DNA of 56,002 bases, the filler included, from Candidatus Woesearchaeota archaeon (GTDB taxonomy: Archaea > Nanobdellota > Nanobdellia > Woesearchaeales > GCA-2685855): assembly GCA_002685855.1 (NCBI GenBank). It is 4 parts of 4 records of this genome, joined end to end, with 100 filler letters (N's around TTAATTAATTAA, not from the genome) between each part and the next. Parts side by side here need not be neighbours in the genome. Positions count along the whole stretch, not along the records: positions 12,090 to 40,992 come from NYYS01000059.1; 3 more parts are not named here. One strand, written 5' to 3'. How positions within the stretch are numbered: position 1 is the stretch's first letter; the number at the start of each line of letters is the position of its first letter. Below the pieces are notes generated by a model, which did not search any database, was not told the origin of the DNA, and saw only the letters and a program-made list of their open reading frames with translations. The translations under genes were made by a program, and so were the position numbers. Below are positions 8,470 through 28,115 of the stretch, in pieces.

Positions 8470-9777
8470 ATGAAGATTACAATTTTTGGAACTGGATACG
8501 TTGGATTGGTTAGTGGTATCTGCTTTGCAGAGCTTGGTAACGATGTTACCTGTGTTGATATTGATGCAGAGAAGATTGAGACGTTGAACAAAGGTATTAT
8601 TCCTATTTATGAGCCTGGGCTGAAGGAGTTGTATGAGAAAACTAAGGAGCGTGGCTTGATTCATTTTACAACTGATGCGGCAACAGCTATTGAGTCGGGA
8701 AAGGTGTTGTTTATCTGTGTGGGAACTCCGCAGAAGCAGAATGGACAGGCAGATCTTAGCTATGTGATGGCTGTTGCTTCGTCGATTGGGAAGCATATGA
8801 AGGAGTATAAGGTTATTGTTGATAAGAGTACGGTTCCTGTTGGAACAGCTGACAAGGTTGCACATGCGATAAAGGAGAGTCAGGATACGGCTGTTGAGTT
8901 TGATGTTACGAGTAATCCTGAGTTTTTGAAGGAAGGAAGTGCGATTAAGGATTTTATGGAGCCGGACAGGATCGTTGTGGGCGCTGATAGTGAGCGGGCA
9001 CAGCAGGTTATGCTGGAGTTGTATAAGCCGTTTGTGACTGAGAAAGCAAAGGTTATCTTTATGGATGTGAAGAGTGCTGAAATTACTAAGTATGCTGCAA
9101 ATGCAATGCTTGCAACACGGATTAGTTTTATGAATGAGCTTGCTCCGTTGTGCGAAGAGGTTGGAGCTGATATTATCAAGGTTGCCCGCGGTATTGGGAC
9201 AGATACGCGGATTGGACCGAAGTTTTTGCAGGCGGGTCCGGGGTATGGCGGGAGTTGTTTTCCTAAGGATATTCGCGCATTGTCTCATGTGCTGGAAACG
9301 CATGGGCAGGCAAATACTATTTTGAAGGCTGTGGATGCTGCAAATGAACGGACGAAGAATCGTGTTGTTCCGCGTGTTAAGAAAATGTTAGGGAGTCTTG
9401 CCAAAAAGAGAGTGGCTGTGTGGGGGCTGGCGTTTAAGCCTGAGACTGATGATATGCGGGAGAGTCCTGCGATCCCTATTATTGAACAGTTGCAGGAGGA
9501 GTTTGCAACGGTTGTTGCGTATGATCCTGAGGCAGAGGAGACGTCGAAGAAGGTTATAAAGAATGTTGAGTATGCAGCTGATCGGTATAGTTGTGTTGAA
9601 GGTGCAGATCTTTTGATTATTGTTACGGATTGGGCAGAGTTTAAGACAGCGAATATGGAGAAGGTGAAGTCTTTGCTGAAAGGGGATTTTGTTTTTGATG
9701 GACGTAATCTGTTTAGTCCGGGTAAGATGAAAGAATTAGGATTCAGGTATGAGAGTATGGGTCGAAAGGGCGTGTAG
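8470..9777 (+). CDS. ugd: UDP-glucose/GDP-mannose dehydrogenase
   Basis: GTGYVG, CVGTP, KSTVPVG, SNPEFL.EG, GYGGSCFPKD, FKPETDD.RES. Confidence 0.95.
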   Translation: MKITIFGTGYVGLVSGICFAELGNDVTCVDIDAEKIETLNKGIIPIYEPGLKELYEKTKERGLIHFTTDAATAIESGKVLFICVGTPQKQNGQADLSYVMAVASSIGKHMKEYKVIVDKSTVPVGTADKVAHAIKESQDTAVEFDVTSNPEFLKEGSAIKDFMEPDRIVVGADSERAQQVMLELYKPFVTEKAKVIFMDVKSAEITKYAANAMLATRISFMNELAPLCEEVGADIIKVARGIGTDTRIGPKFLQAGPGYGGSCFPKDIRALSHVLETHGQANTILKAVDAANERTKNRVVPRVKKMLGSLAKKRVAVWGLAFKPETDDMRESPAIPIIEQLQEEFATVVAYDPEAEETSKKVIKNVEYAADRYSCVEGADLLIIVTDWAEFKTANMEKVKSLLKGDFVFDGRNLFSPGKMKELGFRYESMGRKGV

Positions 9778-19795: not shown

Positions 19796-20296
19796 TTGTG
19801 TGTGGTAAAAAAAGAGCAACTACAAAGGGCTTTTCAGGCCATAAAAAAAGAATTCGAAGAACATCTCGACGGTATAAACAAGAACACTGAAGAGATTCAA
19901 ACACTCTTCGGCTACCTCCAGGAAGTCGAAGGAAAGGTCGACAAACTCATGGAACGCCTCGACACCATCGAATTCTCAACAGAAATAGAGAACGGAAACA
20001 CCACCACAGCAATCGAACTCAACATACGAGAACAGGAAGTATTCACTGTCATCTACTGTTCAGAAGAGGCCATCCAAACAGAAGAGATCGCAAAACGACT
20101 CGGATTCACCCCCTCTATGATAAACAGCTATATCTATAGAATCATATCCAAAGGTGTTCCCCTAATCCGAGATTTTAAAGAAGAAAAATCCTATATCAAG
20201 TTAGACCCTTCTTTCAAAGACCTTCAAATGAGAAAAAACATCCTAAAAATCGACGAATCTGTCTCTCGGACAATGTTGGCAGAGAAGATGATATAG
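19796..20296 (+). CDS. Coiled-coil + winged-HTH DNA-binding protein
   Basis: N-terminal heptads; LN.REQEVF...IA.RLG...I..KGVP HTH. Confidence 0.75.
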   Translation: MCVVKKEQLQRAFQAIKKEFEEHLDGINKNTEEIQTLFGYLQEVEGKVDKLMERLDTIEFSTEIENGNTTTAIELNIREQEVFTVIYCSEEAIQTEEIAKRLGFTPSMINSYIYRIISKGVPLIRDFKEEKSYIKLDPSFKDLQMRKNILKIDESVSRTMLAEKMI

Positions 20297-20432
20297 AGCT
20301 CTTTTTTTCACCCAGAATCAACACAAAAAATGTGTGTGTTGCTAAAATATTTTAAGCATATCTTCTCTTAAATTAATCTGAAACTTTTAAGCAAAACTTA
20401 AAAATTATTCAATCAATATAGATATTTTATAT

Positions 20433-20527
20433 CCAATACATAGTTAAACCAATAAATTGTATCTCCAATAAATAGTACAACCAATAAATAATTTTTAAAA
20501 AATATTATTGCAAAACCAATAAATATA
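20433..20527 (+). repeat. Left array of 16-bp-period repeats (CCAATAAATAGT)
   Basis: Units at 20433, 20449, 20465, 20481 and a fifth at 20516. Confidence 0.85.
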
Positions 20528-20552
20528 AATAGGAGCACATTCAAAAAACAGT

Positions 20553-20894
20553 ATGCCAAAAGAGAGCGGTCTCCTCGAATTAAAGGGGTTCCTTAGTTTT
20601 CTTATCCTTCATGAGCTCGATCAGAAGATTCTCTGCGGTGATGACTTGGCAATGAGAATAGGTGAACGAAAAGGCTCGATGCTCACTCCTGGAACAATTT
20701 ATCCTGCATTGAAAAAGCTCAGAAATAAACGTTTAATCCGGTATCGAAGACAGGGAAGAAAGAAGATGTACTATCTCTCAGAAATGGGAAAAGAGGAATT
20801 AAAACTTTTATATAAGCAATTTTCGCAATATTTTTATGGATTAAAGAGATTCATCAAGCGAAAATCACCAAAAAAAATAAAGAAGAAAAAATGA
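20553..20894 (+). CDS. PadR-family winged-helix protein
   Basis: GFL..LIL..L, PGTIYPAL..L, RK.Y.L...G. Confidence 0.9.
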   Translation: MPKESGLLELKGFLSFLILHELDQKILCGDDLAMRIGERKGSMLTPGTIYPALKKLRNKRLIRYRRQGRKKMYYLSEMGKEELKLLYKQFSQYFYGLKRFIKRKSPKKIKKKK

Positions 20895-20896
20895 TG

Positions 20897-20965
20897 GAAA
20901 TGCTTAAAGGTTTTAGAAAACAACAAAAAAGACAAAATATAAGAAATGCTTAAAGGTTTTAGAAA
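20897..20965. repeat. Perfect 23-bp direct repeat
   Basis: GAAATGCTTAAAGGTTTTAGAAA at 20897-20919 and 20943-20965. Confidence 0.9.
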
Positions 20966-21495
20966 TGGCTGAATTTGCAAGAGACGTACGAAAAGGTGAA
21001 CAATCGAGCCAGATCATGGCTCGCCTCCAAAGAGAACATCAGGTAGCAGAAGCTCTCATAAAACACGTAGAGCGAGCCCAGGAATCGATGGACCAGATCC
21101 ACGACCTAGAAAAACACCTCAACACCGTAGCCGACATCGTGAGGAAACTTGCTGATAGAAAGAGACACATCCAGGGAAAGGTAGACAAATGGGTGGCAAA
21201 ACATGAGCTGAGGGGTGACCTCAACGAAAAAAAGGCAGCACATAGAAGAAAGAGAGCCATCCATCGAATGATGGCCCTTACCAAAAAAGCACATAAAAGA
21301 CTAACTCCTGTTCTACAAGAGCTCCAGAAGATAAGACCTGCAACCCAGAACATCAACAAAATCATAGAACAGATGAATAAAGACATGGCCTATGTTGATG
21401 AGTATGAAAATGAAGAGATGAAAGAGCTCAACAGATGGGATCGACAGGTAGTCAAAGCCCGAAGAAGCTGGCACCTTTTTTCCGGTAGAATTTGA
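20965..21495 (+). CDS. Hypothetical helical/coiled-coil protein
   Basis: 176-aa charged all-alpha ORF. Confidence 0.7.
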   Translation: MAEFARDVRKGEQSSQIMARLQREHQVAEALIKHVERAQESMDQIHDLEKHLNTVADIVRKLADRKRHIQGKVDKWVAKHELRGDLNEKKAAHRRKRAIHRMMALTKKAHKRLTPVLQELQKIRPATQNINKIIEQMNKDMAYVDEYENEEMKELNRWDRQVVKARRSWHLFSGRI

Positions 21496-21508
21496 TAGTC
21501 GATTTAGG

Positions 21509-21536
21509 TGTGGAAATAAGCTATTTTATGTTAAAA
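21509..21536. other. Second, bacterial-like dif-type site
   Basis: TGTGGAAATAA-GCTATT-TTATGTTAAAA; right arm matches the E. coli XerD arm TTATGTTAAAT at 10/11. Confidence 0.45.
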
Positions 21537-21597
21537 CCAAGGTTTTCACCATTTATCGACGAGAAAACCCACAAAGTCTAGGTAACTGATCAAATAA

Positions 21598-21625
21598 CAT
21601 TCGCATAATCAACATTATGCGAAGC
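21598..21625. other. dif site (XerA recombination site)
   Basis: CATTCGCATAA-TCAACA-TTATGCGAAGC: 11-6-11 layout, 9-bp perfect inverted arms, about 30 bp upstream of xerA. Confidence 0.88.
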
Positions 21626-21654
21626 TTTATATATGTGTGCTTTTCTAGAATACT

Positions 21655-22452
21655 ATGTCTTGGGTGAAGAAGGTTGAGGTTGAATTGAAGTTGAAGGGGT
21701 GTAGTCCGCACACTGTCCAGGCTTTTTTGATGCAGACGCGGAAATTTTTTGAATTTGTGAATAAGGAGCCGGAACAGATAGAGCTGGATGATGTAAAGGC
21801 CTATCTTGCTTTTCTGATCTCTGATAAAGGATTGGCTCCTCGTTCTGTGGCTTTGGCCAGGAGTGCAATTTTGTTCTGCCTGAATAAGGTGTATGGAAAG
21901 GGGTTTGAAACTGTATCTGCTCCAAAGGCGCCTAAGTCGTTACCTTTAGTATTGTCAAAGGATGAAGTGAAACTGCTTTTGGATAGTTGTAAGCACAAGA
22001 AATCCCGATTGATCCTGGAGCTGTTGTATAGTTCGGGGATGAGGGTTTCAGAGGTGTTGAATCTACGTCATGAGGATCTGGAGTATGAAAAGGGACTAGG
22101 GTGGGTTCGTGGTGGAAAAGGAGGGAAGGATCGTATTTTTCCGTTGTCAAAGGGGTTTAAGGAGAAGATCGGTGGGGGGCATGGGTTGGTTTTTTCTAAT
22201 GTGGGAAAACCGATGAGTGCCCGGAATGTGCAGCAGATTATTAAGCGAGCTGCGGTGTCTGCAGGTATTCAAAAGAAAATAACGCCTCATAAGCTTCGGC
22301 ACAGTTTTGCCACCCACTTATTGGAGGATGGAGTAGATATTCGTGTGATCCAGGAAGTGTTGGGACATGCCTCTTTACAGACGACACAGATCTATACGCA
22401 TGTGAGTTCTAAGGCTATTAGTGGTATTGAGAATCCGTTAGATAAATTGTAA
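21655..22452 (+). CDS. xerA: Tyrosine recombinase XerA
   Basis: N-terminal SAM-like domain; G.RVSE, GKG.KDR, HKLRHSFATH, LGH....TTQIY; no IntI-type insertion seen. Confidence 0.92.
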   Translation: MSWVKKVEVELKLKGCSPHTVQAFLMQTRKFFEFVNKEPEQIELDDVKAYLAFLISDKGLAPRSVALARSAILFCLNKVYGKGFETVSAPKAPKSLPLVLSKDEVKLLLDSCKHKKSRLILELLYSSGMRVSEVLNLRHEDLEYEKGLGWVRGGKGGKDRIFPLSKGFKEKIGGGHGLVFSNVGKPMSARNVQQIIKRAAVSAGIQKKITPHKLRHSFATHLLEDGVDIRVIQEVLGHASLQTTQIYTHVSSKAISGIENPLDKL

Positions 22453-22486
22453 GAATTGCTTAAAAGTTTTAGCTTGTGTTTTTTGT

Positions 22487-22564
22487 GGTGTTTATTGGAT
22501 GTACTATCTATTGGGTAACCTATTTATTGGATAAACTATGTGTCGGATTTACTATTTTTATCGG
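22487..22564 (-). repeat. Right array of 16-bp-period repeats, inverted relative to the left array
   Basis: Minus-strand units CCAATAAACACC, CCAATAGATAGT, CCAATAAATAGG, CCGACACATAGT ending (+) at 22498, 22514, 22530, 22546; weaker fifth at 22564. Confidence 0.85.
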
Positions 22565-22649
22565 ATTTTTTTGTTTTATAATATTTGGGTTTTGCTAGAA
22601 TAATTTAGTTGAATATATTGATAAAAGTTTTAAGCAAATATAGAAATAT

Positions 22650-26487: not shown

Positions 26488-28115
26488 GTGCAGCATTTAT
26501 AAACGATCTAGGAGCGCGTATCCTTGAACTATTATGGATAGTTCTTTTGTTCTGTATTATAGCTAAGGTTTTTATGATGTTTAGTGGGATTCGAGGTGGC
26601 GATGGTGGAGGCGGCGGCGGAGGTGGTCGAGGTCCAAGGGGGCCACGTCGTCCTAGAGATAGAGATGGCCCGGGAGGAGATGGTCCAGATGATGATGATG
26701 AACCTGAAGAGTTAGCTGATGCTACAGCTGAAGGAGAAATACAGGATCCAAGTGGTAATGGGTTAGACAACGTAACAATTACAGGGAGGAGGGATCATGT
26801 TCGAAGAAATAGGTTGAGGCCATGGCGGAGAGTGATGAGGAGTAGAAGGATTGGGACTGTTCACTCGGGTGCTGATGGCAGATATCATGTTAGAGACTTG
26901 AGAGAGGGGGCGTTGGAATTAACATTCACACACCCCAACTACCCTCCTCTAACTCGAGTCTTTACTCTGACGGCAGGTCATAACACGCTGCCTGATGTAC
27001 GGTTTAGTGCGAATCCTCCGCCAGGAAGAATTGAAGGTAGTGTAAGTTATTATGGAGGGGATGATTCTCGAAGAGTTTATCTTGGGAATGTGCGGATAGA
27101 GGCTTTTCGGAGGAGAGATAATAATCCTTTAGGCAATGTTACTACGAATACTGCAGATCCTGAGCAGTTTGTAAAGGGCGGTATGTGTAATCTGTTTGAT
27201 CCTGATACAGGAAAGTTTGAGATTCCTGATATTCCCCAGGGAGAGGAGTTCTATATTGTTGCTACAGATGGTTGGGGGGCTTATAGGCAGGTCAATTCAA
27301 ATAGTCTATCGATTCGAAATGATGCATTTGTTGTAGGGTCGGGTCAGACGTTGAGGATGGATATCTTTATGCAGCCCGTAGTTGCGAGTGGAGCTACAAA
27401 TGGTGAAATGAAAGGTGTTATTTCATCGACAAGTGGAGGTGGAATTCCAATTCCTTCCATTCCCTCAATAGGGGGAGCTTACCCTCCTGTTGTTACAAAT
27501 GCCCAAAACATCCGTGTAATGGTGGACGGAACCAATTGGTCGAATCCGTCTGATGCTACAGGGAACTATGTATTGGCTGATGTTCCTGTGGGAGTCTTCT
27601 TGCCTATACTAACAAGGGATGTTTCTACTCCGCCTGTATATACGTCGTATCAGGAATCGCACTATGTGTATCTGAGAAGGGCTTCTGGGAATGCGGATAG
27701 TGAACGTACCTTTCCAATCTCGATCTCTCCGCTTGCTGGAAGAACAGGGTTGATTGTGGGCAGGTGCAGACGTGTTAATCCTGACGGTTCGCGATCGCTT
27801 ATTGATGCAACCCAACCAGTATACAATCGGCTTCAGGCAGAGGCACAAAGAACAGGCGATTCAAAGATTGTGAACGTGGTGAATGGTGTGCAGAACGGGA
27901 TCTTTAGTTTTGCAAACCTGACTGTAGGTCAAGCTTATAATGTGAATGTTAAAGATACTAACCAGTATTTTGCAGATAGTCCAGTCACAGGGACTGTACT
28001 GGCACAAAATCCGCCTGGACCTGCTATTATTGTTGATATTCTTCCGGATGTACCTCCATCGTCAGGTGTTCAGGTTGATCCTTCAACAGGTGAGGTGACG
28101 ATAACAATAACGTAA
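26478..28115 (+). CDS. Membrane-anchored protein with repeated carboxypeptidase-regulatory-like beta domains
   Basis: N-terminal TM, Gly/Pro/Asp linker, repeats of G.I.G.V...V.I...G.Y...(D/N)(L/V)..G. Confidence 0.7.
   Translation: MAVGAAFINDLGARILELLWIVLLFCIIAKVFMMFSGIRGGDGGGGGGGGRGPRGPRRPRDRDGPGGDGPDDDDEPEELADATAEGEIQDPSGNGLDNVTITGRRDHVRRNRLRPWRRVMRSRRIGTVHSGADGRYHVRDLREGALELTFTHPNYPPLTRVFTLTAGHNTLPDVRFSANPPPGRIEGSVSYYGGDDSRRVYLGNVRIEAFRRRDNNPLGNVTTNTADPEQFVKGGMCNLFDPDTGKFEIPDIPQGEEFYIVATDGWGAYRQVNSNSLSIRNDAFVVGSGQTLRMDIFMQPVVASGATNGEMKGVISSTSGGGIPIPSIPSIGGAYPPVVTNAQNIRVMVDGTNWSNPSDATGNYVLADVPVGVFLPILTRDVSTPPVYTSYQESHYVYLRRASGNADSERTFPISISPLAGRTGLIVGRCRRVNPDGSRSLIDATQPVYNRLQAEAQRTGDSKIVNVVNGVQNGIFSFANLTVGQAYNVNVKDTNQYFADSPVTGTVLAQNPPGPAIIVDILPDVPPSSGVQVDPSTGEVTITIT

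What the first reader, a model, noticed from the sequence alone, without database searches (positions are those of the whole stretch)
20433..22564. Candidate archaeal fork trap / terminus module: inverted 16-bp repeat arrays + PadR-like wHTH + dif + XerA
Seen: the left array (+) has CCAATACATAGT, CCAATAAATTGT, CCAATAAATAGT, CCAATAAATAAT at exact 16-bp spacing (20433/49/65/81) plus one at 20516. The right array has the same motif on the - strand, also at 16-bp spacing (ending 22498/514/530/546). They lie about 1.07 kb left and 0.86 kb right of dif, and the skew switches between them. The left array covers the padR promoter; the right one lies between two convergent 3' ends, so it is not a simple operator. 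Known: Bacillus subtilis RTP is a winged-helix dimer that binds ~16-bp half-sites cooperatively in polar Ter sites, and rtp is autoregulated by adjacent Ter repeats. I know of no described archaeal equivalent. Inference: the PadR-like protein coats both arrays to arrest forks or organise the terminus for XerA. Alternatives are centromere-like sites, Xer accessory sites or origin iterons.
Basis: partly seen in the sequence, partly recalled or inferred. Interest (0 to 1): 0.9.

Follow-up and report, generated by a model that had tools for sequence, protein, structure and literature searches.

The report
PadR site arrays bracketing archaeal dif-xerA
In a marine Woesearchaeota archaeon, two rows of binding sites for a small PadR-type protein sit on either side of the chromosome-unlinking site dif and its recombinase gene, exactly where the genome's strand composition flips, but the data cannot say whether replication starts or ends there.

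Summary
Four to five 12-bp units at 16-bp spacing lie at 20433-20527 (+), and five mirror them at 22487-22564 (-). No other such array occurs in the 953-kb assembly. I also found a second locus-specific palindrome, B (TGCTTAAAAGTTTTAG), with five copies, all here. The arrays bracket padR, a non-conserved ORF, a dif-like site (21600-21623) and the genome's only tyrosine recombinase, which scores as XerA. PadR, XerA and a coiled-coil wHTH gene are linked across Woesearchaeota. An array lies upstream of padR in 45 of 79 loci and beside the xerA 3' end in 14 of 59. Earlier notes of this scan found the same layout on other DNA.

The fork-trap and terminus reading is not established. Units in relatives are palindromes, so no polarity is conserved. 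The skew switch runs from minus to plus, which by the usual convention is the origin type. A canonical ORB origin lies beside the main cdc6 gene in relatives, only 7 kb from the module in one. Gene and rRNA orientation argue the opposite way.

The most likely role is autoregulatory PadR operator arrays that also form a protein-coated bracket around dif-xerA. Origin versus terminus stays open.

The parts
19796..20296 (+). HTH166: long N-terminal coiled-coil helix plus a winged HTH. Conserved neighbour of padR/xerA and candidate binder of motif B (inferred).
   Evidence: Found in 58 of 80 related loci: 40 upstream on the same strand, 18 downstream and convergent. Model pLDDT 90, with helix 2-65 and a wHTH at 77-136. 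Only generic MarR/ArsR-type matches. Only weak Pfam HTH hits below cut-off. Still sits 3 kb from xerA in G016, which lacks the PadR ortholog.
20378..20392 (-). Motif B copy 1 (palindromic core TAAAAGTTTTA). A weaker B-like palindrome lies at about 20341-20357.
   Evidence: The 15-mer GCTTAAAAGTTTTAG with at most 2 mismatches gave 6 hits in the 953-kb genome, 5 of them within window 20378-22635. The B-like copy is C59 position 8252.
20433..20527 (+). Left A array: four units at exact 16-bp spacing (20433-20492) plus a fifth at 20516-20527 that overlaps an AT-rich TATA-like stretch about 25-35 bp before the padR ATG (promoter overlap inferred).
   Evidence: An array of at least 3 units lies within 260 bp upstream of padR in 45 of 79 related loci.
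20553..20894 (+). padR: 113-aa short (subfamily-2 type) PadR-family winged-helix protein.
   Evidence: Pfam PadR 35.5 bits against a cut-off of 27. PDB profile hits are PadR proteins. Model pLDDT 79. Foldseek TM 0.7-0.8 to PadR/LmrR. VIA Z 12.5-14 to PadR, RosR and MarR proteins and to AspA 4rs8.
20902..20962 (+). Motif B copies 2 and 3 (20902-20916 and 20948-20962), inside a 46-bp tandem duplication that ends at the ORF176 start.
   Evidence: TRF period 46, 2.1 copies. A B-like site lies within 130 bp after padR in 42 of 75 related loci. Neighbouring B hits 20 bp apart occurred 12 times, counted over all B hits in the 80 related loci plus the reference.
20965..21495 (+). ORF176: predicted coiled-coil protein, not conserved. 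GC3 skew is near zero, so it may be a later arrival.
   Evidence: No tblastn match in any of 80 related loci. No family above cut-off. GC3 skew -0.07.
21600..21623 (.). dif-like Xer site: 9-bp inverted arms around a 6-bp spacer (TTCGCATAA TCAACA TTATGCGAA), 31 bp upstream of xerA.
   Evidence: Related sites such as TTCGCATAATGTATATTAGGCGAA lie near xerA in relatives. A dif-like site lies within 600 bp of the xerA start in 32 of 59 loci and within 120 bp in 12 of 59. It shares the TAA-N6-TTA core that PMC11840125 names as the most conserved feature of archaeal dif.
21655..22452 (+). xerA: archaeal Xer-type tyrosine recombinase, the only Phage_integrase-family gene found in the assembly.
   Evidence: NCBIfam NF040815 recomb_XerA_Arch 231 bits against a cut-off of 220. 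Pfam Phage_integrase 4e-44. One match in the whole genome. R130, H212, R215, H238 and Y247 are invariant in 35 sequences.
22458..22472 (+). Motif B copy 4, directly after the xerA stop codon.
22487..22564 (-). Right A array: five units on the - strand, the outer two degenerate, between convergent 3' ends.
   Evidence: An array lies within 300 bp of the xerA 3' end in 14 of 59 related loci, whichever way xerA points.
22621..22635 (-). Motif B copy 5. The right array is thus flanked by B sites on both sides, as in G005 and G006.

Best explanation
This is a resident chromosomal module of Woesearchaeota. It is built around the dimer-resolution unit dif-xerA.

Proposed mechanism:
- Dimers of the short PadR-family protein bind 12-bp quasi-palindromes (family consensus ACAATATATTGT). 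The sites sit every 16 bp in rows of 3-7, so neighbouring dimers can pack into a continuous protein coat.
- The row upstream of padR reaches its promoter and autoregulates the gene. This step has the strongest architectural support but is still inferred.
- A second row beyond the 3' end of xerA, plus the locus-specific palindrome B, puts protein-coated blocks on both sides of dif-xerA. B is probably bound by the conserved coiled-coil wHTH neighbour HTH166.
- I read this bracket as a control or insulation layer for the recombination site. It would be a sequence-specific counterpart of the TrmBL2 filament that stalls Smc-ScpAB on both sides of dif in Thermococcus kodakarensis. It could keep SMC, RNA polymerase or replisomes from running through dif, and tie xerA expression to PadR. 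This step is inferred.

In this genome the module also marks the only assembled reversal of an unusually strong strand skew. It is therefore a fixed replication landmark, but its sign (start or end) is unresolved.
For: Uniqueness:
- There are 2 arrays in the contig, against a mean of 0.07 in shuffles.
- Related loci hold 1 array in 516 kb of flanking DNA.
- All 5 good copies of B in the genome lie within 2.3 kb.

Co-occurrence with the protein:
- An array lies upstream of padR in 45 of 79 loci.
- The complete genome G016 has no PadR ortholog. It shows only 4 poor chance chains in 1.30 Mb, none near xerA.

Site type: 188 units give the palindrome aCwATAtATwGt, as expected for a dimeric wHTH. 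The protein has a PadR subfamily-2 type fold.

Linkage to Xer:
- xerA is present in 59 of 80 loci, and in 42 of 49 that have at least 4 kb on both sides. The median padR-xerA distance is 919 bp.
- XerA meets the curated XerA model.
- dif-like sites lie beside xerA.

Bracketing:
- G000, G005 and G006, from three families, share the order B, A-array, padR, B, dif, xerA, B, A-array, B.
- The second array follows the xerA 3' end whichever way xerA points.

Residency: both flanks are conserved with G031 and G034.

Precedent:
[quoted passage not shown] - An SMC gene is present in this genome.
Against: - No binding data exist. Which protein binds A and which binds B is inferred only from gene-site adjacency.
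- With my detector the second array was found in only 14 of 59 loci, and both arrays together in 9 of 59. The bracket may therefore be optional.
- In G034 a single array lies between xerA and padR.
- In some relatives the array after xerA precedes a same-strand gene and could simply be its operator.
- PadR is not a TrmB-family protein, so the parallel with TrmBL2 is functional only.
- Loss of the dif boundary gave no phenotype in T. kodakarensis, so the benefit of insulation is unproven.
- The coincidence with the skew switch is not explained by insulation alone.
Confidence: 0.4

Rival explanations
1. Plain transcription control only. The rows are PadR operators for padR and for whatever gene lies next to the second row, with no structural role at dif.
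For: The upstream array is the commonest feature, in 45 of 79 loci. The fifth unit overlaps a TATA-like stretch. PadR proteins are classic autoregulated repressors with palindromic operators (hits). In G005 and G006 the second row precedes a same-strand gene.
Against: In this genome the right row lies between two convergent 3' ends with no gene to control. Across relatives the second row follows the xerA 3' end whichever way xerA points. Rows of 3-7 abutting sites are more than a simple operator needs. The tight PadR-XerA-dif linkage in 59 of 80 loci needs a reason.
Confidence: 0.2
2. The locus is the replication terminus, and the PadR-coated rows act as a polar fork trap around dif, as RTP/Ter does in Bacillus.
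For: - The switch is sharp, within about 1.1 kb between the left row and dif. GC3 skew runs -0.40 in HTH166, +0.21 in padR, -0.07 in ORF176 and +0.70 in xerA.
- dif and XerA sit at the switch, as dif does at the skew inversion in bacteria and M. stadtmanae.
- 366 of 673 protein genes (54%, p 0.025) lie on the C-rich strand. So do 9 of 11 genes of 1000 aa or more, 6 of 8 tRNAs, and the 23S and 5S rRNA genes. This fits C-rich leading strands and forks converging here.
- In G016, 18 of 25 orthologous genes within 25 kb point toward xerA.
- In G000 and its closest relative L048 the units of the two rows are mirror images.
Against: - The sign of the switch (minus to plus) is the origin type by the usual convention. 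G016 follows that convention.
- The gene that follows cdc6-main in 6 of 6 relatives opens contig C29, whose skew is positive when read away from the origin.
- Genes pointing away from the canonical origin in relatives lie on the G-rich strand here. The table is 11 co-directional and 2 head-on on the G-rich strand against 4 and 5 on the C-rich strand, p 0.07. For G016 alone within 25 kb it is 9 and 0 against 3 and 4, p 0.019.
- xerA carries the full right-flank skew, so the right row is not a boundary.
- Units are palindromic in relatives, and the second row is absent from most loci.
- The module lies 7-11 kb from the ORB origin in G042 and 92 degrees from it in G016.
- In Sulfolobus, termination is stochastic and dif lies outside the fusion zones (PMC3020120).
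- The excess of long genes on the C-rich strand could instead reflect more C-to-T nonsense mutations on the G/T-rich coding strand (my inference).
Confidence: 0.12
3. The locus is, or directly adjoins, a non-canonical replication origin. The A rows and B palindromes would then serve as iteron-like or initiator sites, possibly for the orphan second Orc1/Cdc6 paralog.
For: - The skew sign is the origin type, and the cumulative minimum is at 20549, in the AT-rich (21-25% GC) padR upstream region.
- The switch is sharp, as at archaeal origins, whereas Thermococcales termini are broad (PMC2958812 passage).
- GC3 skew in most flanking genes (-0.55 to -0.89 on the left; +0.70 and +0.72 in the first two genes on the right) is among the strongest per-gene values in the genome. 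Contigs syntenic with the canonical origin are weaker (C29 +0.45, C25 -0.49). Contig means range down to about 0, as expected for broad termination zones.
- The relatives examined for it carry a second Orc1/Cdc6 paralog. In the two copies examined (G000 C45, G034) there is no origin-like upstream region.
- The canonical origin block is mobile relative to these genes. In G042 it sits between TctA and LonB.
Against: - No ORB-like element was found in the contig at up to 4 mismatches, although relatives have textbook ORBs beside cdc6-main.
- No initiator gene lies in the module.
- The rows track padR in every genome, as an operator would.
- The 23S rRNA gene 16 kb away and most left-flank genes would be transcribed head-on.
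- No skew switch is seen at the module in relatives. Of 50 loci, 43 show none, 4 go plus to minus and 3 minus to plus.
Confidence: 0.13
4. Centromere-like partition site. The PadR-type protein would be a centromere-binding protein that coats repeat rows around its own operon, like AspA of pNOB8, StbA/stbS of R388 or TubR/tubC.
For: - AspA (4rs8) is as close a structural match as the true PadR regulators: Z 12.5, rmsd 2.0, 83 of 84 residues aligned.
- StbA has a PadR-like HTH, binds two sets of five repeats and autoregulates. AspA spreads on DNA. TubR coats seven 12-bp repeats arranged in two sets (preprint 10.1101/2022.04.29.490116, passages).
- The rows here are unique in the genome.
Against: No ParA-, TubZ-, ParM- or SegA-type NTPase gene, and no adaptor gene, lies in or beside the module. 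All these wHTH folds score alike, so structure does not discriminate. The conserved partner is a recombinase, not a motor.
Confidence: 0.1
5. Ends of a mobile or invertible element: a recombinase cassette with terminal inverted repeat rows.
For: The rows flank a recombinase gene in inverted arrangement in this genome. The padR-xerA block is found in both orientations relative to the HTH-MTase-RpoL flank, with HTH upstream in 40 loci and downstream and convergent in 18. In G006 two dif-like sites flank a 1.2-kb insert.
Against: There is one copy per genome at a conserved chromosomal position, with both flanks shared across families. XerA is the only tyrosine recombinase in the assembly and scores as the housekeeping XerA. 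Skew on both flanks is at equilibrium.
Confidence: 0.03

Closest known systems
TrmBL2-dependent chromosomal domain boundary at dif in Thermococcus kodakarensis (PMC11840125; search listing and passages read)
   Same: A DNA-binding protein coat on the sequences around dif. The effect is on both sides of dif and independent of XerA and of dif itself. A dif-like site upstream of the xerA operon at a boundary is also reported for H. volcanii. An SMC gene is present in this genome.
   Different: TrmBL2 is a genome-wide nucleoid protein of the TrmB family that binds a 1.9-kb intergenic region. Here a dedicated PadR-family protein has discrete phased palindromes and its gene lies inside the bracket. 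No 3C or ChIP data exist for this organism.
Short (subfamily-2 type) PadR-family repressors such as LmrR, BC4206 and CdPadR_0991
   Same: Pfam PadR above cut-off and the same fold, with TM 0.7-0.8 and Z 13-14. Palindromic operator upstream of its own gene.
   Different: Rows of 3-7 abutting sites at 16-bp phase, a second row beyond a recombinase gene, no efflux or detoxification gene as target, and fixed linkage to dif-xerA.
Archaeal Xer/dif systems (P. abyssi XerA, S. solfataricus Xer; PMC2958812 and PMC3020120, passages read)
   Same: A single XerA-type recombinase and a dif with TAA-N6-TTA and inverted arms. dif lies close to xerA as in Sulfolobales. Thermococcales dif sites are flanked by conserved inverted repeats proposed as partner sites.
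   Different: The flanking elements here are multi-unit rows 0.9-1.1 kb away. They come with a cognate regulator gene, a second palindrome type and a second wHTH gene.
Bacillus subtilis RTP/Ter fork trap
   Same: A small winged-helix dimer with a C-terminal dimerisation helix, sites overlapping its own promoter, and opposed site groups around a terminus with dif nearby.
   Different: No hit to an RTP family (only PadR in Pfam). RTP is not among the structural matches listed. Units are palindromic rather than core/auxiliary half-sites. The skew sign is opposite to a bacterial terminus. Fork arrest is untested.
Centromere-binding wHTH proteins on repeat rows: AspA (pNOB8), StbA/stbS (R388), TubR/tubC (preprint 10.1101/2022.04.29.490116, passages read)
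   Same: PadR-like DNA-binding fold, cooperative coating of two sets of short repeats, and autoregulation.
   Different: Chromosomal rather than plasmid-borne. No motor or adaptor gene. The partner gene is a recombinase. The repeats are palindromes at 16-bp phase rather than direct repeats at 11-12 bp.

Membership tests
PadR family (Pfam PF03551), short subfamily-2 type | Sequence match above the curated cut-off | tested here: met
   35.5 bits against a cut-off of 27, residues 18-84. The best PDB profile hits are PadR proteins, 5dym at E 4e-11.
PadR family (Pfam PF03551), short subfamily-2 type | Winged HTH followed by one long C-terminal dimerisation helix, about 110 aa | tested here: met
   The model has H10-24, H29-40, H46-58, E62-67, E70-75 and H77-103. 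TM is 0.71-0.75 to 4esb, 4esf, 5dym and LmrR.
PadR family (Pfam PF03551), short subfamily-2 type | Binds a palindromic operator as a dimer | not testable with these tools
   Only indirect support. 188 units upstream of padR genes give a 12-bp palindrome consensus.
Archaeal XerA (NCBIfam NF040815) | Score above the equivalog cut-off | tested here: met
   231 bits against a cut-off of 220.
Archaeal XerA (NCBIfam NF040815) | Conserved tyrosine-recombinase catalytic residues (R, H-x-x-R, H and Y; the roles are recalled) | tested here: met
   R130, H212, R215, H238 and Y247 are invariant in 35 aligned sequences.
Xer recombination site (dif) | Inverted arms around a 6-bp spacer with a TAA-N6-TTA core, single copy, close to or co-conserved with xer | tested here: met
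   21600-21623. Related sites lie beside xerA in relatives. The core feature is named in PMC11840125. XerA binding and recombination are not tested.
RTP/Ter-type replication fork trap | Protein belongs to the RTP family | tested here: not met
   The Pfam scan at E up to 0.01 returns PadR only, and NCBIfam returns PadR/ArsR-type models only. On fold the result is inconclusive: RTP is not among the rows listed.
RTP/Ter-type replication fork trap | Asymmetric (polar) sites in two opposed groups | tested here: inconclusive
   Units here are asymmetric and mirrored, with 4-8 of 12 positions self-complementary. The family consensus is a palindrome, the second group was found in 14 of 59 loci, and the orientation calls vary.
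RTP/Ter-type replication fork trap | Located where forks converge | tested here: inconclusive
   A switch is present, but its sign is minus to plus. Gene and RNA-gene orientation favour convergence. Origin-flank synteny favours the usual polarity.
RTP/Ter-type replication fork trap | Orientation-dependent arrest of a replicative helicase | not testable with these tools
   Needs biochemistry.
Archaeal oriC (Orc1/Cdc6 with ORB elements) | ORB elements in inverted orientation around an AT-rich unwinding region | tested here: not met
   Textbook ORBs (TTCCAnnGGAAAnnnnGGGGT type) flank AT runs upstream of cdc6-main in 6 relatives. The same pattern at up to 4 mismatches gives no hit in this contig.
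Archaeal oriC (Orc1/Cdc6 with ORB elements) | Adjacent initiator gene | tested here: not met
   No Orc1/Cdc6 match in the contig. The only paralog found is on C45.
Archaeal oriC (Orc1/Cdc6 with ORB elements) | Sharp minus-to-plus skew switch | tested here: met
Plasmid-type centromere with a wHTH centromere-binding protein | Repeat rows at the promoter of an autoregulated binding-protein gene | tested here: met
   (architecture only).
Plasmid-type centromere with a wHTH centromere-binding protein | Cognate NTPase or adaptor gene in the operon | tested here: not met
   Pfam and NCBIfam scans of the module and its neighbours show none.
Integrated or transposable element | Variable location, with flanks not conserved | tested here: not met
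   Both flanks are shared with G031 and G034. Related loci carry MTase in 35 of 80, RpoL in 40 of 80 and UppS in 28 of 80.

The most novel reading that the evidence does not exclude
The PadR/B-site module is itself the cis-acting determinant of a fixed replication landmark in an archaeon. Read by the usual skew polarity, it would be an ORB-less origin sitting on dif-xerA. If this lineage has reversed polarity, it would be the first archaeal sequence-specific fork trap. Either way, a small PadR-type protein coat would position where forks start or stop.
Probability: 0.25. Interest if true: 0.9.

Novelty: new variant of a known kind. Interest (0 to 1): 0.6.

Why it matters
How archaea without FtsK control Xer recombination is an open question. 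So is what the conserved sequences around archaeal dif sites do. This module offers a defined system for both: one small protein, discrete phased sites, a second site type and a second wHTH protein, conserved across an uncultured order and easy to rebuild in vitro.

This genome adds something the relatives lack. Its strand skew is so strong (GC3 skew of about 0.7-0.9 in most flanking genes) that the reversal can be placed within about 1 kb, on the module. One closed genome plus coverage-based replication profiling would therefore show whether archaeal forks start or stop at a PadR-coated site next to dif.

I found no paper describing this. A search needing at least 3 of the terms PadR, XerA, Woesearchaeota, DPANN and tyrosine recombinase returned 0 papers. 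None of the 15 papers listed for Woesearchaeota, GC skew and origin of replication contained the word Woesearchaeota. The 10 papers listed on archaeal termination and fork traps describe no archaeal trap in their titles or abstracts.

Tried and rejected
- PadR-XerA complex prediction: no verdict (score 0.00). It says nothing either way.
- RTP comparison: RTP does not appear among the 50 rows listed by Foldseek or by VIA-align. All wHTH-plus-helix folds tie at Z 12.5-14, so structure cannot choose between repressor, centromere binder and terminator protein.
- Skew conservation: of 50 related loci with both flanks, 43 show no switch, 4 go plus to minus and 3 minus to plus. Skew in relatives follows gene orientation, so the test is uninformative.
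- Whole-genome ortholog test of polarity against the complete G016: 318 reciprocal best hits, odds ratio about 1, p 1.0. Only the origin-proximal subset gave a signal.
- Looking for the other switch: no other clean switch in 66 contigs. The apparent second switch at about 38.5 kb is the 23S rRNA gene. The main cdc6 gene, the 16S rRNA gene and the L2 gene (taken as marker of the main ribosomal-protein cluster) were not found in the assembly.
- tRNA orientation statistic: ARAGORN found only 8 tRNAs.
- Public runs: only low-depth contigs (about 5x in X1, 2-3x in the others). They break at both arrays and show no trustworthy joints. The two listed have sides under 30 letters. This says nothing on inversion, excision or coverage.
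- Recent one-sided inversion as the cause of the switch: rejected, because both flanks keep the same relative orientation in G031 and G034.
- Homology of HTH166 to the coiled-coil wHTH ORF beside the ORB on C52: none detectable.
- Module-to-origin distances in G041 and G044 (about 182 kb and 65 kb): not used as evidence. They rest on an unverified match between contig numbers and record names.

Full report
**What is there**

The window is a concatenation of contigs. The finding lies in contig C59 (window 12090-40992) of a 953-kb, 66-contig assembly that is 94% complete. Titles of related records place it in Woesearchaeota.

- Four units of CCAATAnATnGT start at 20433, 20449, 20465 and 20481, and a fifth at 20516.
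- On the other strand, five units end at 22498, 22514, 22530, 22546 and 22564.

Chance does not explain this.
- The degenerate pattern gave 5 matches against 0.05 expected.
- Genome-wide, 6 of the 15 sites with at most 1 mismatch lie in the two rows.
- My row detector finds 2 rows in the contig. In 100 block-wise shuffles the mean was 0.07 and none had 2 or more.

The palindrome-centred motif B (TGCTTAAAAGTTTTAG) has 6 hits with at most 2 mismatches in the whole genome. Five lie within 2.3 kb here, at 20378 (-), 20902, 20948, 22458 and 22621 (-).

The full order is: HTH166 gene, B, A row, padR, B, B, ORF176, dif, xerA, B, A row, B.

**The genes**

- The 113-aa product is a short PadR-family protein. 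It scores above the Pfam cut-off. Its model superposes on PadR/LmrR-type structures at TM 0.7-0.8. VIA Z is 12.5-14 to PadR, RosR and MarR proteins and to the centromere binder AspA alike.
- XerA passes the curated archaeal XerA model at 231 bits against a cut-off of 220. It is the only tyrosine recombinase found in the assembly, and its catalytic residues are invariant in 35 homologs.
- The site TTCGCATAA-TCAACA-TTATGCGAA at 21600-21623 has the arm-spacer-arm form and the TAA-N6-TTA core of archaeal dif.
- HTH166 is a 64-residue coiled-coil helix fused to a generic winged HTH.
- ORF176 has no relatives in any of the 80 related loci.

**Conservation**

A scan with a PadR alignment found 131 related stretches, and 80 loci were kept.
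- xerA is present in 59 of 80 loci, and in 42 of 49 with at least 4 kb on both sides.
- HTH166 is present in 58 of 80.
- A row of at least 3 units lies within 260 bp upstream of padR in 45 of 79.
- A row lies within 300 bp of the xerA 3' end in 14 of 59, and both rows are present in 9 of 59.
- A B-like site lies just after padR in 42 of 75.
- Only 1 row was found in 516 kb of flanking DNA.

G000, G005 and G006, from three families, share the full bracket with B sites around the second row.

The complete genome G016 has xerA and an HTH166 homolog 3 kb away. It has no PadR ortholog, no credible row and no B site.

The rows therefore go with PadR, and the triad goes with dif. Both flanks of the module are shared with G031 and G034: UppS-RpoL-MTase-HTH on one side and TctA-LonB-Kae1 on the other. 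The module is resident, and the contig is not mis-joined at the repeats.

Two earlier notes of this scan describe the same layout in other genomes. I saw them only after my own survey.

**The nature of the sites**

The 188 units from 46 upstream rows give aCwATAtATwGt, a 12-bp palindrome. Rows hold 3-7 units.

In this genome the units are lopsided (CCAAT...ATAGT), and the two rows mirror each other. That asymmetry is not a family trait.

The padR-xerA block occurs in both orientations relative to the HTH-MTase-RpoL flank, with HTH upstream in 40 loci and downstream and convergent in 18. xerA can point either way. G034 has one row serving both positions, in the order dif-xerA-row-padR.

**Replication landmark**

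The genome has an extraordinary strand skew.
- Contigs are uniformly of one sign.
- GC3 skew per gene is -0.55 to -0.89 in the genes left of HTH166, whichever strand they are on. It is -0.40 in HTH166.
- It is +0.70 and +0.72 in xerA and the next gene, and +0.11 to +0.59 in the three genes after that.
- The intermediate values are +0.21 in padR and -0.07 in ORF176.
- The cumulative minimum is at 20549.
- This is the only clean switch in the assembly. The apparent one near 38.5 kb is the 23S rRNA gene.

The flanks are ancient neighbours of the module, and the skew is at equilibrium on both sides. Forks have therefore long diverged or converged within about 1 kb of this point.

**Origin or terminus?**

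Evidence for the usual polarity, which makes this an origin-type switch:
- The convention itself (passages in PMC7111523 and PMC2958812).
- The G-rich strand is also the T-rich one once coding effects are allowed for. This is the signature expected of leading strands. It is my inference.
- In the complete relative G016, the ORB origin at 764 kb adjoins the cumulative-skew minimum plateau at 680-760 kb, and the maximum is near 160 kb.
- Relatives have textbook ORBs and an AT-rich unwinding region upstream of cdc6-main.
- That region is missing from this assembly. The gene that follows cdc6-main in 6 of 6 relatives opens contig C29, whose GC3 skew is positive when read away from the origin.
- Genes that point away from the origin in relatives lie on the G-rich strand here. 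The table is 11 co-directional and 2 head-on on the G-rich strand against 4 and 5 on the C-rich strand, p 0.07. One of the four is a paralog mis-hit. For G016 within 25 kb it is 9 and 0 against 3 and 4, p 0.019. The genes cluster on few contigs, so these p values overstate.
- The switch is sharp, and most flanking genes carry GC3 skew that is among the strongest per-gene values in the genome. Contigs syntenic with the canonical origin are weaker, and contig means range down to zero. That pattern resembles sharp archaeal origins with broad termination zones.

Evidence for a terminus:
- dif and XerA are here.
- 54% of protein genes (366 of 673, p 0.025) lie on the C-rich strand. So do 9 of 11 genes of 1000 aa or more, 6 of 8 tRNAs, and the 23S and 5S genes.
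- In G016, 18 of 25 orthologous genes within 25 kb point toward xerA.

Two caveats weaken this side. The long-gene bias could arise because C-to-T pressure creates stop codons faster on the G/T-rich coding strand, which is my inference. And archaeal dif need not be at a terminus. It lies outside the fork fusion zones in Sulfolobus, 92 degrees from the ORB origin in G016, and 7-11 kb from it in G042.

I put the two readings near even and do not decide.

A trap bounded by the two rows predicts intermediate skew across the whole interval. Instead xerA carries the full right-flank value, so the neutral zone is only the stretch from the left row to dif.

Together with palindromic units, a frequently missing second row and the origin-type sign, the RTP-like trap is a minority reading. 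It is not excluded for this genome.

**Preferred mechanism**

The best-supported step is that PadR coats the phased palindromes at its own promoter and autoregulates.

The second row and the B sites make protein-coated blocks on both sides of dif-xerA. The nearest documented parallel is in T. kodakarensis. There the sequence around dif, through the filament-forming protein TrmBL2, stalls Smc-ScpAB on both sides of dif, independently of XerA and of dif itself. Cortez et al. also noted inverted repeats flanking Thermococcales dif as possible partner sites.

This genome has an SMC gene. I therefore read the module as a dedicated control and insulation bracket for the dimer-resolution site.

The rivals are, in order: operator only, origin-linked, fork trap, centromere-like (AspA/StbA/TubR type), and mobile or invertible element.

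**What I could not see**

- No raw reads were served, so coverage and strand-switch joints could not be assessed.
- Supplementary figures of the cited papers were not opened. An example is Figure S3/S4 of PMC2958812, on the Thermococcales flanking repeats.
- RTP, AspA and pB171 details not covered by the passages read are from recall.

Noticed in passing
whole assembly; window 12090-40992 as example: The strand skew is extreme and independent of gene orientation. GC3 skew per gene reaches about 0.9. Contig means range continuously from about 0 to 0.82, and 82 of 477 2-kb windows fall below |0.1|. Among the related loci and the five relatives' regions I profiled, one (L083) reached about +0.3 on both flanks; the rest were weak or followed gene orientation.
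   Followed up: partly
G000:C52:16325-17082 (not in the window): A 308-bp intergenic region holds one perfect ORB (TTCCAGTGGAAATAAGGGGGT on the - strand). It is flanked by about ten copies of GTCTCAG in two groups and lies upstream of a 149-aa coiled-coil plus wHTH ORF. No skew switch occurs there. The region is syntenic with the far side of the canonical origin in G025. It may be an origin relic or a second origin.
   Followed up: partly
assembly-wide: The main Orc1/Cdc6 gene (about 420-430 bits in relatives) and its ORB origin are missing from the assembly. Only the weaker paralog is present (C45:8676-9827, 175 bits), with a 46-bp upstream gap and no origin-like region. The shortest contig is 6.1 kb, so a short contig was probably filtered out.
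   Followed up: partly
L024:9066-10285 (G006): Two dif-like sites (at 9066 and 10258) flank a 1.2-kb insert carrying a 265-aa and a 77-aa ORF, between padR and xerA. It looks like an element integrated at dif by Xer recombination.
   Followed up: no
L128-L129 (G042:C1:35600-52700): The whole cdc6-main/ORB origin block (about 14 kb) sits between TctA and LonB. In G000 those two genes are separated only by a 107-aa ORF, and in G034 by a 105-aa ORF. The canonical origin block therefore moves relative to housekeeping genes in this order.
   Followed up: partly
window 20871-20965: A 46-bp tandem duplication (2.1 copies) carries motif B twice and ends exactly at the ORF176 start codon.
   Followed up: no
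window 27565-27576 (-): A single perfect-class A unit (CCAATACATAGT) lies inside the 545-aa CarboxypepD_reg-domain gene, 5 kb from the module. It is probably chance or a lone auxiliary site.
   Followed up: no
assembly-wide: ARAGORN finds only 8 tRNA genes in 953 kb, 5 of them with predicted introns. No 16S rRNA gene and no ribosomal protein L2 gene were found.
   Followed up: no
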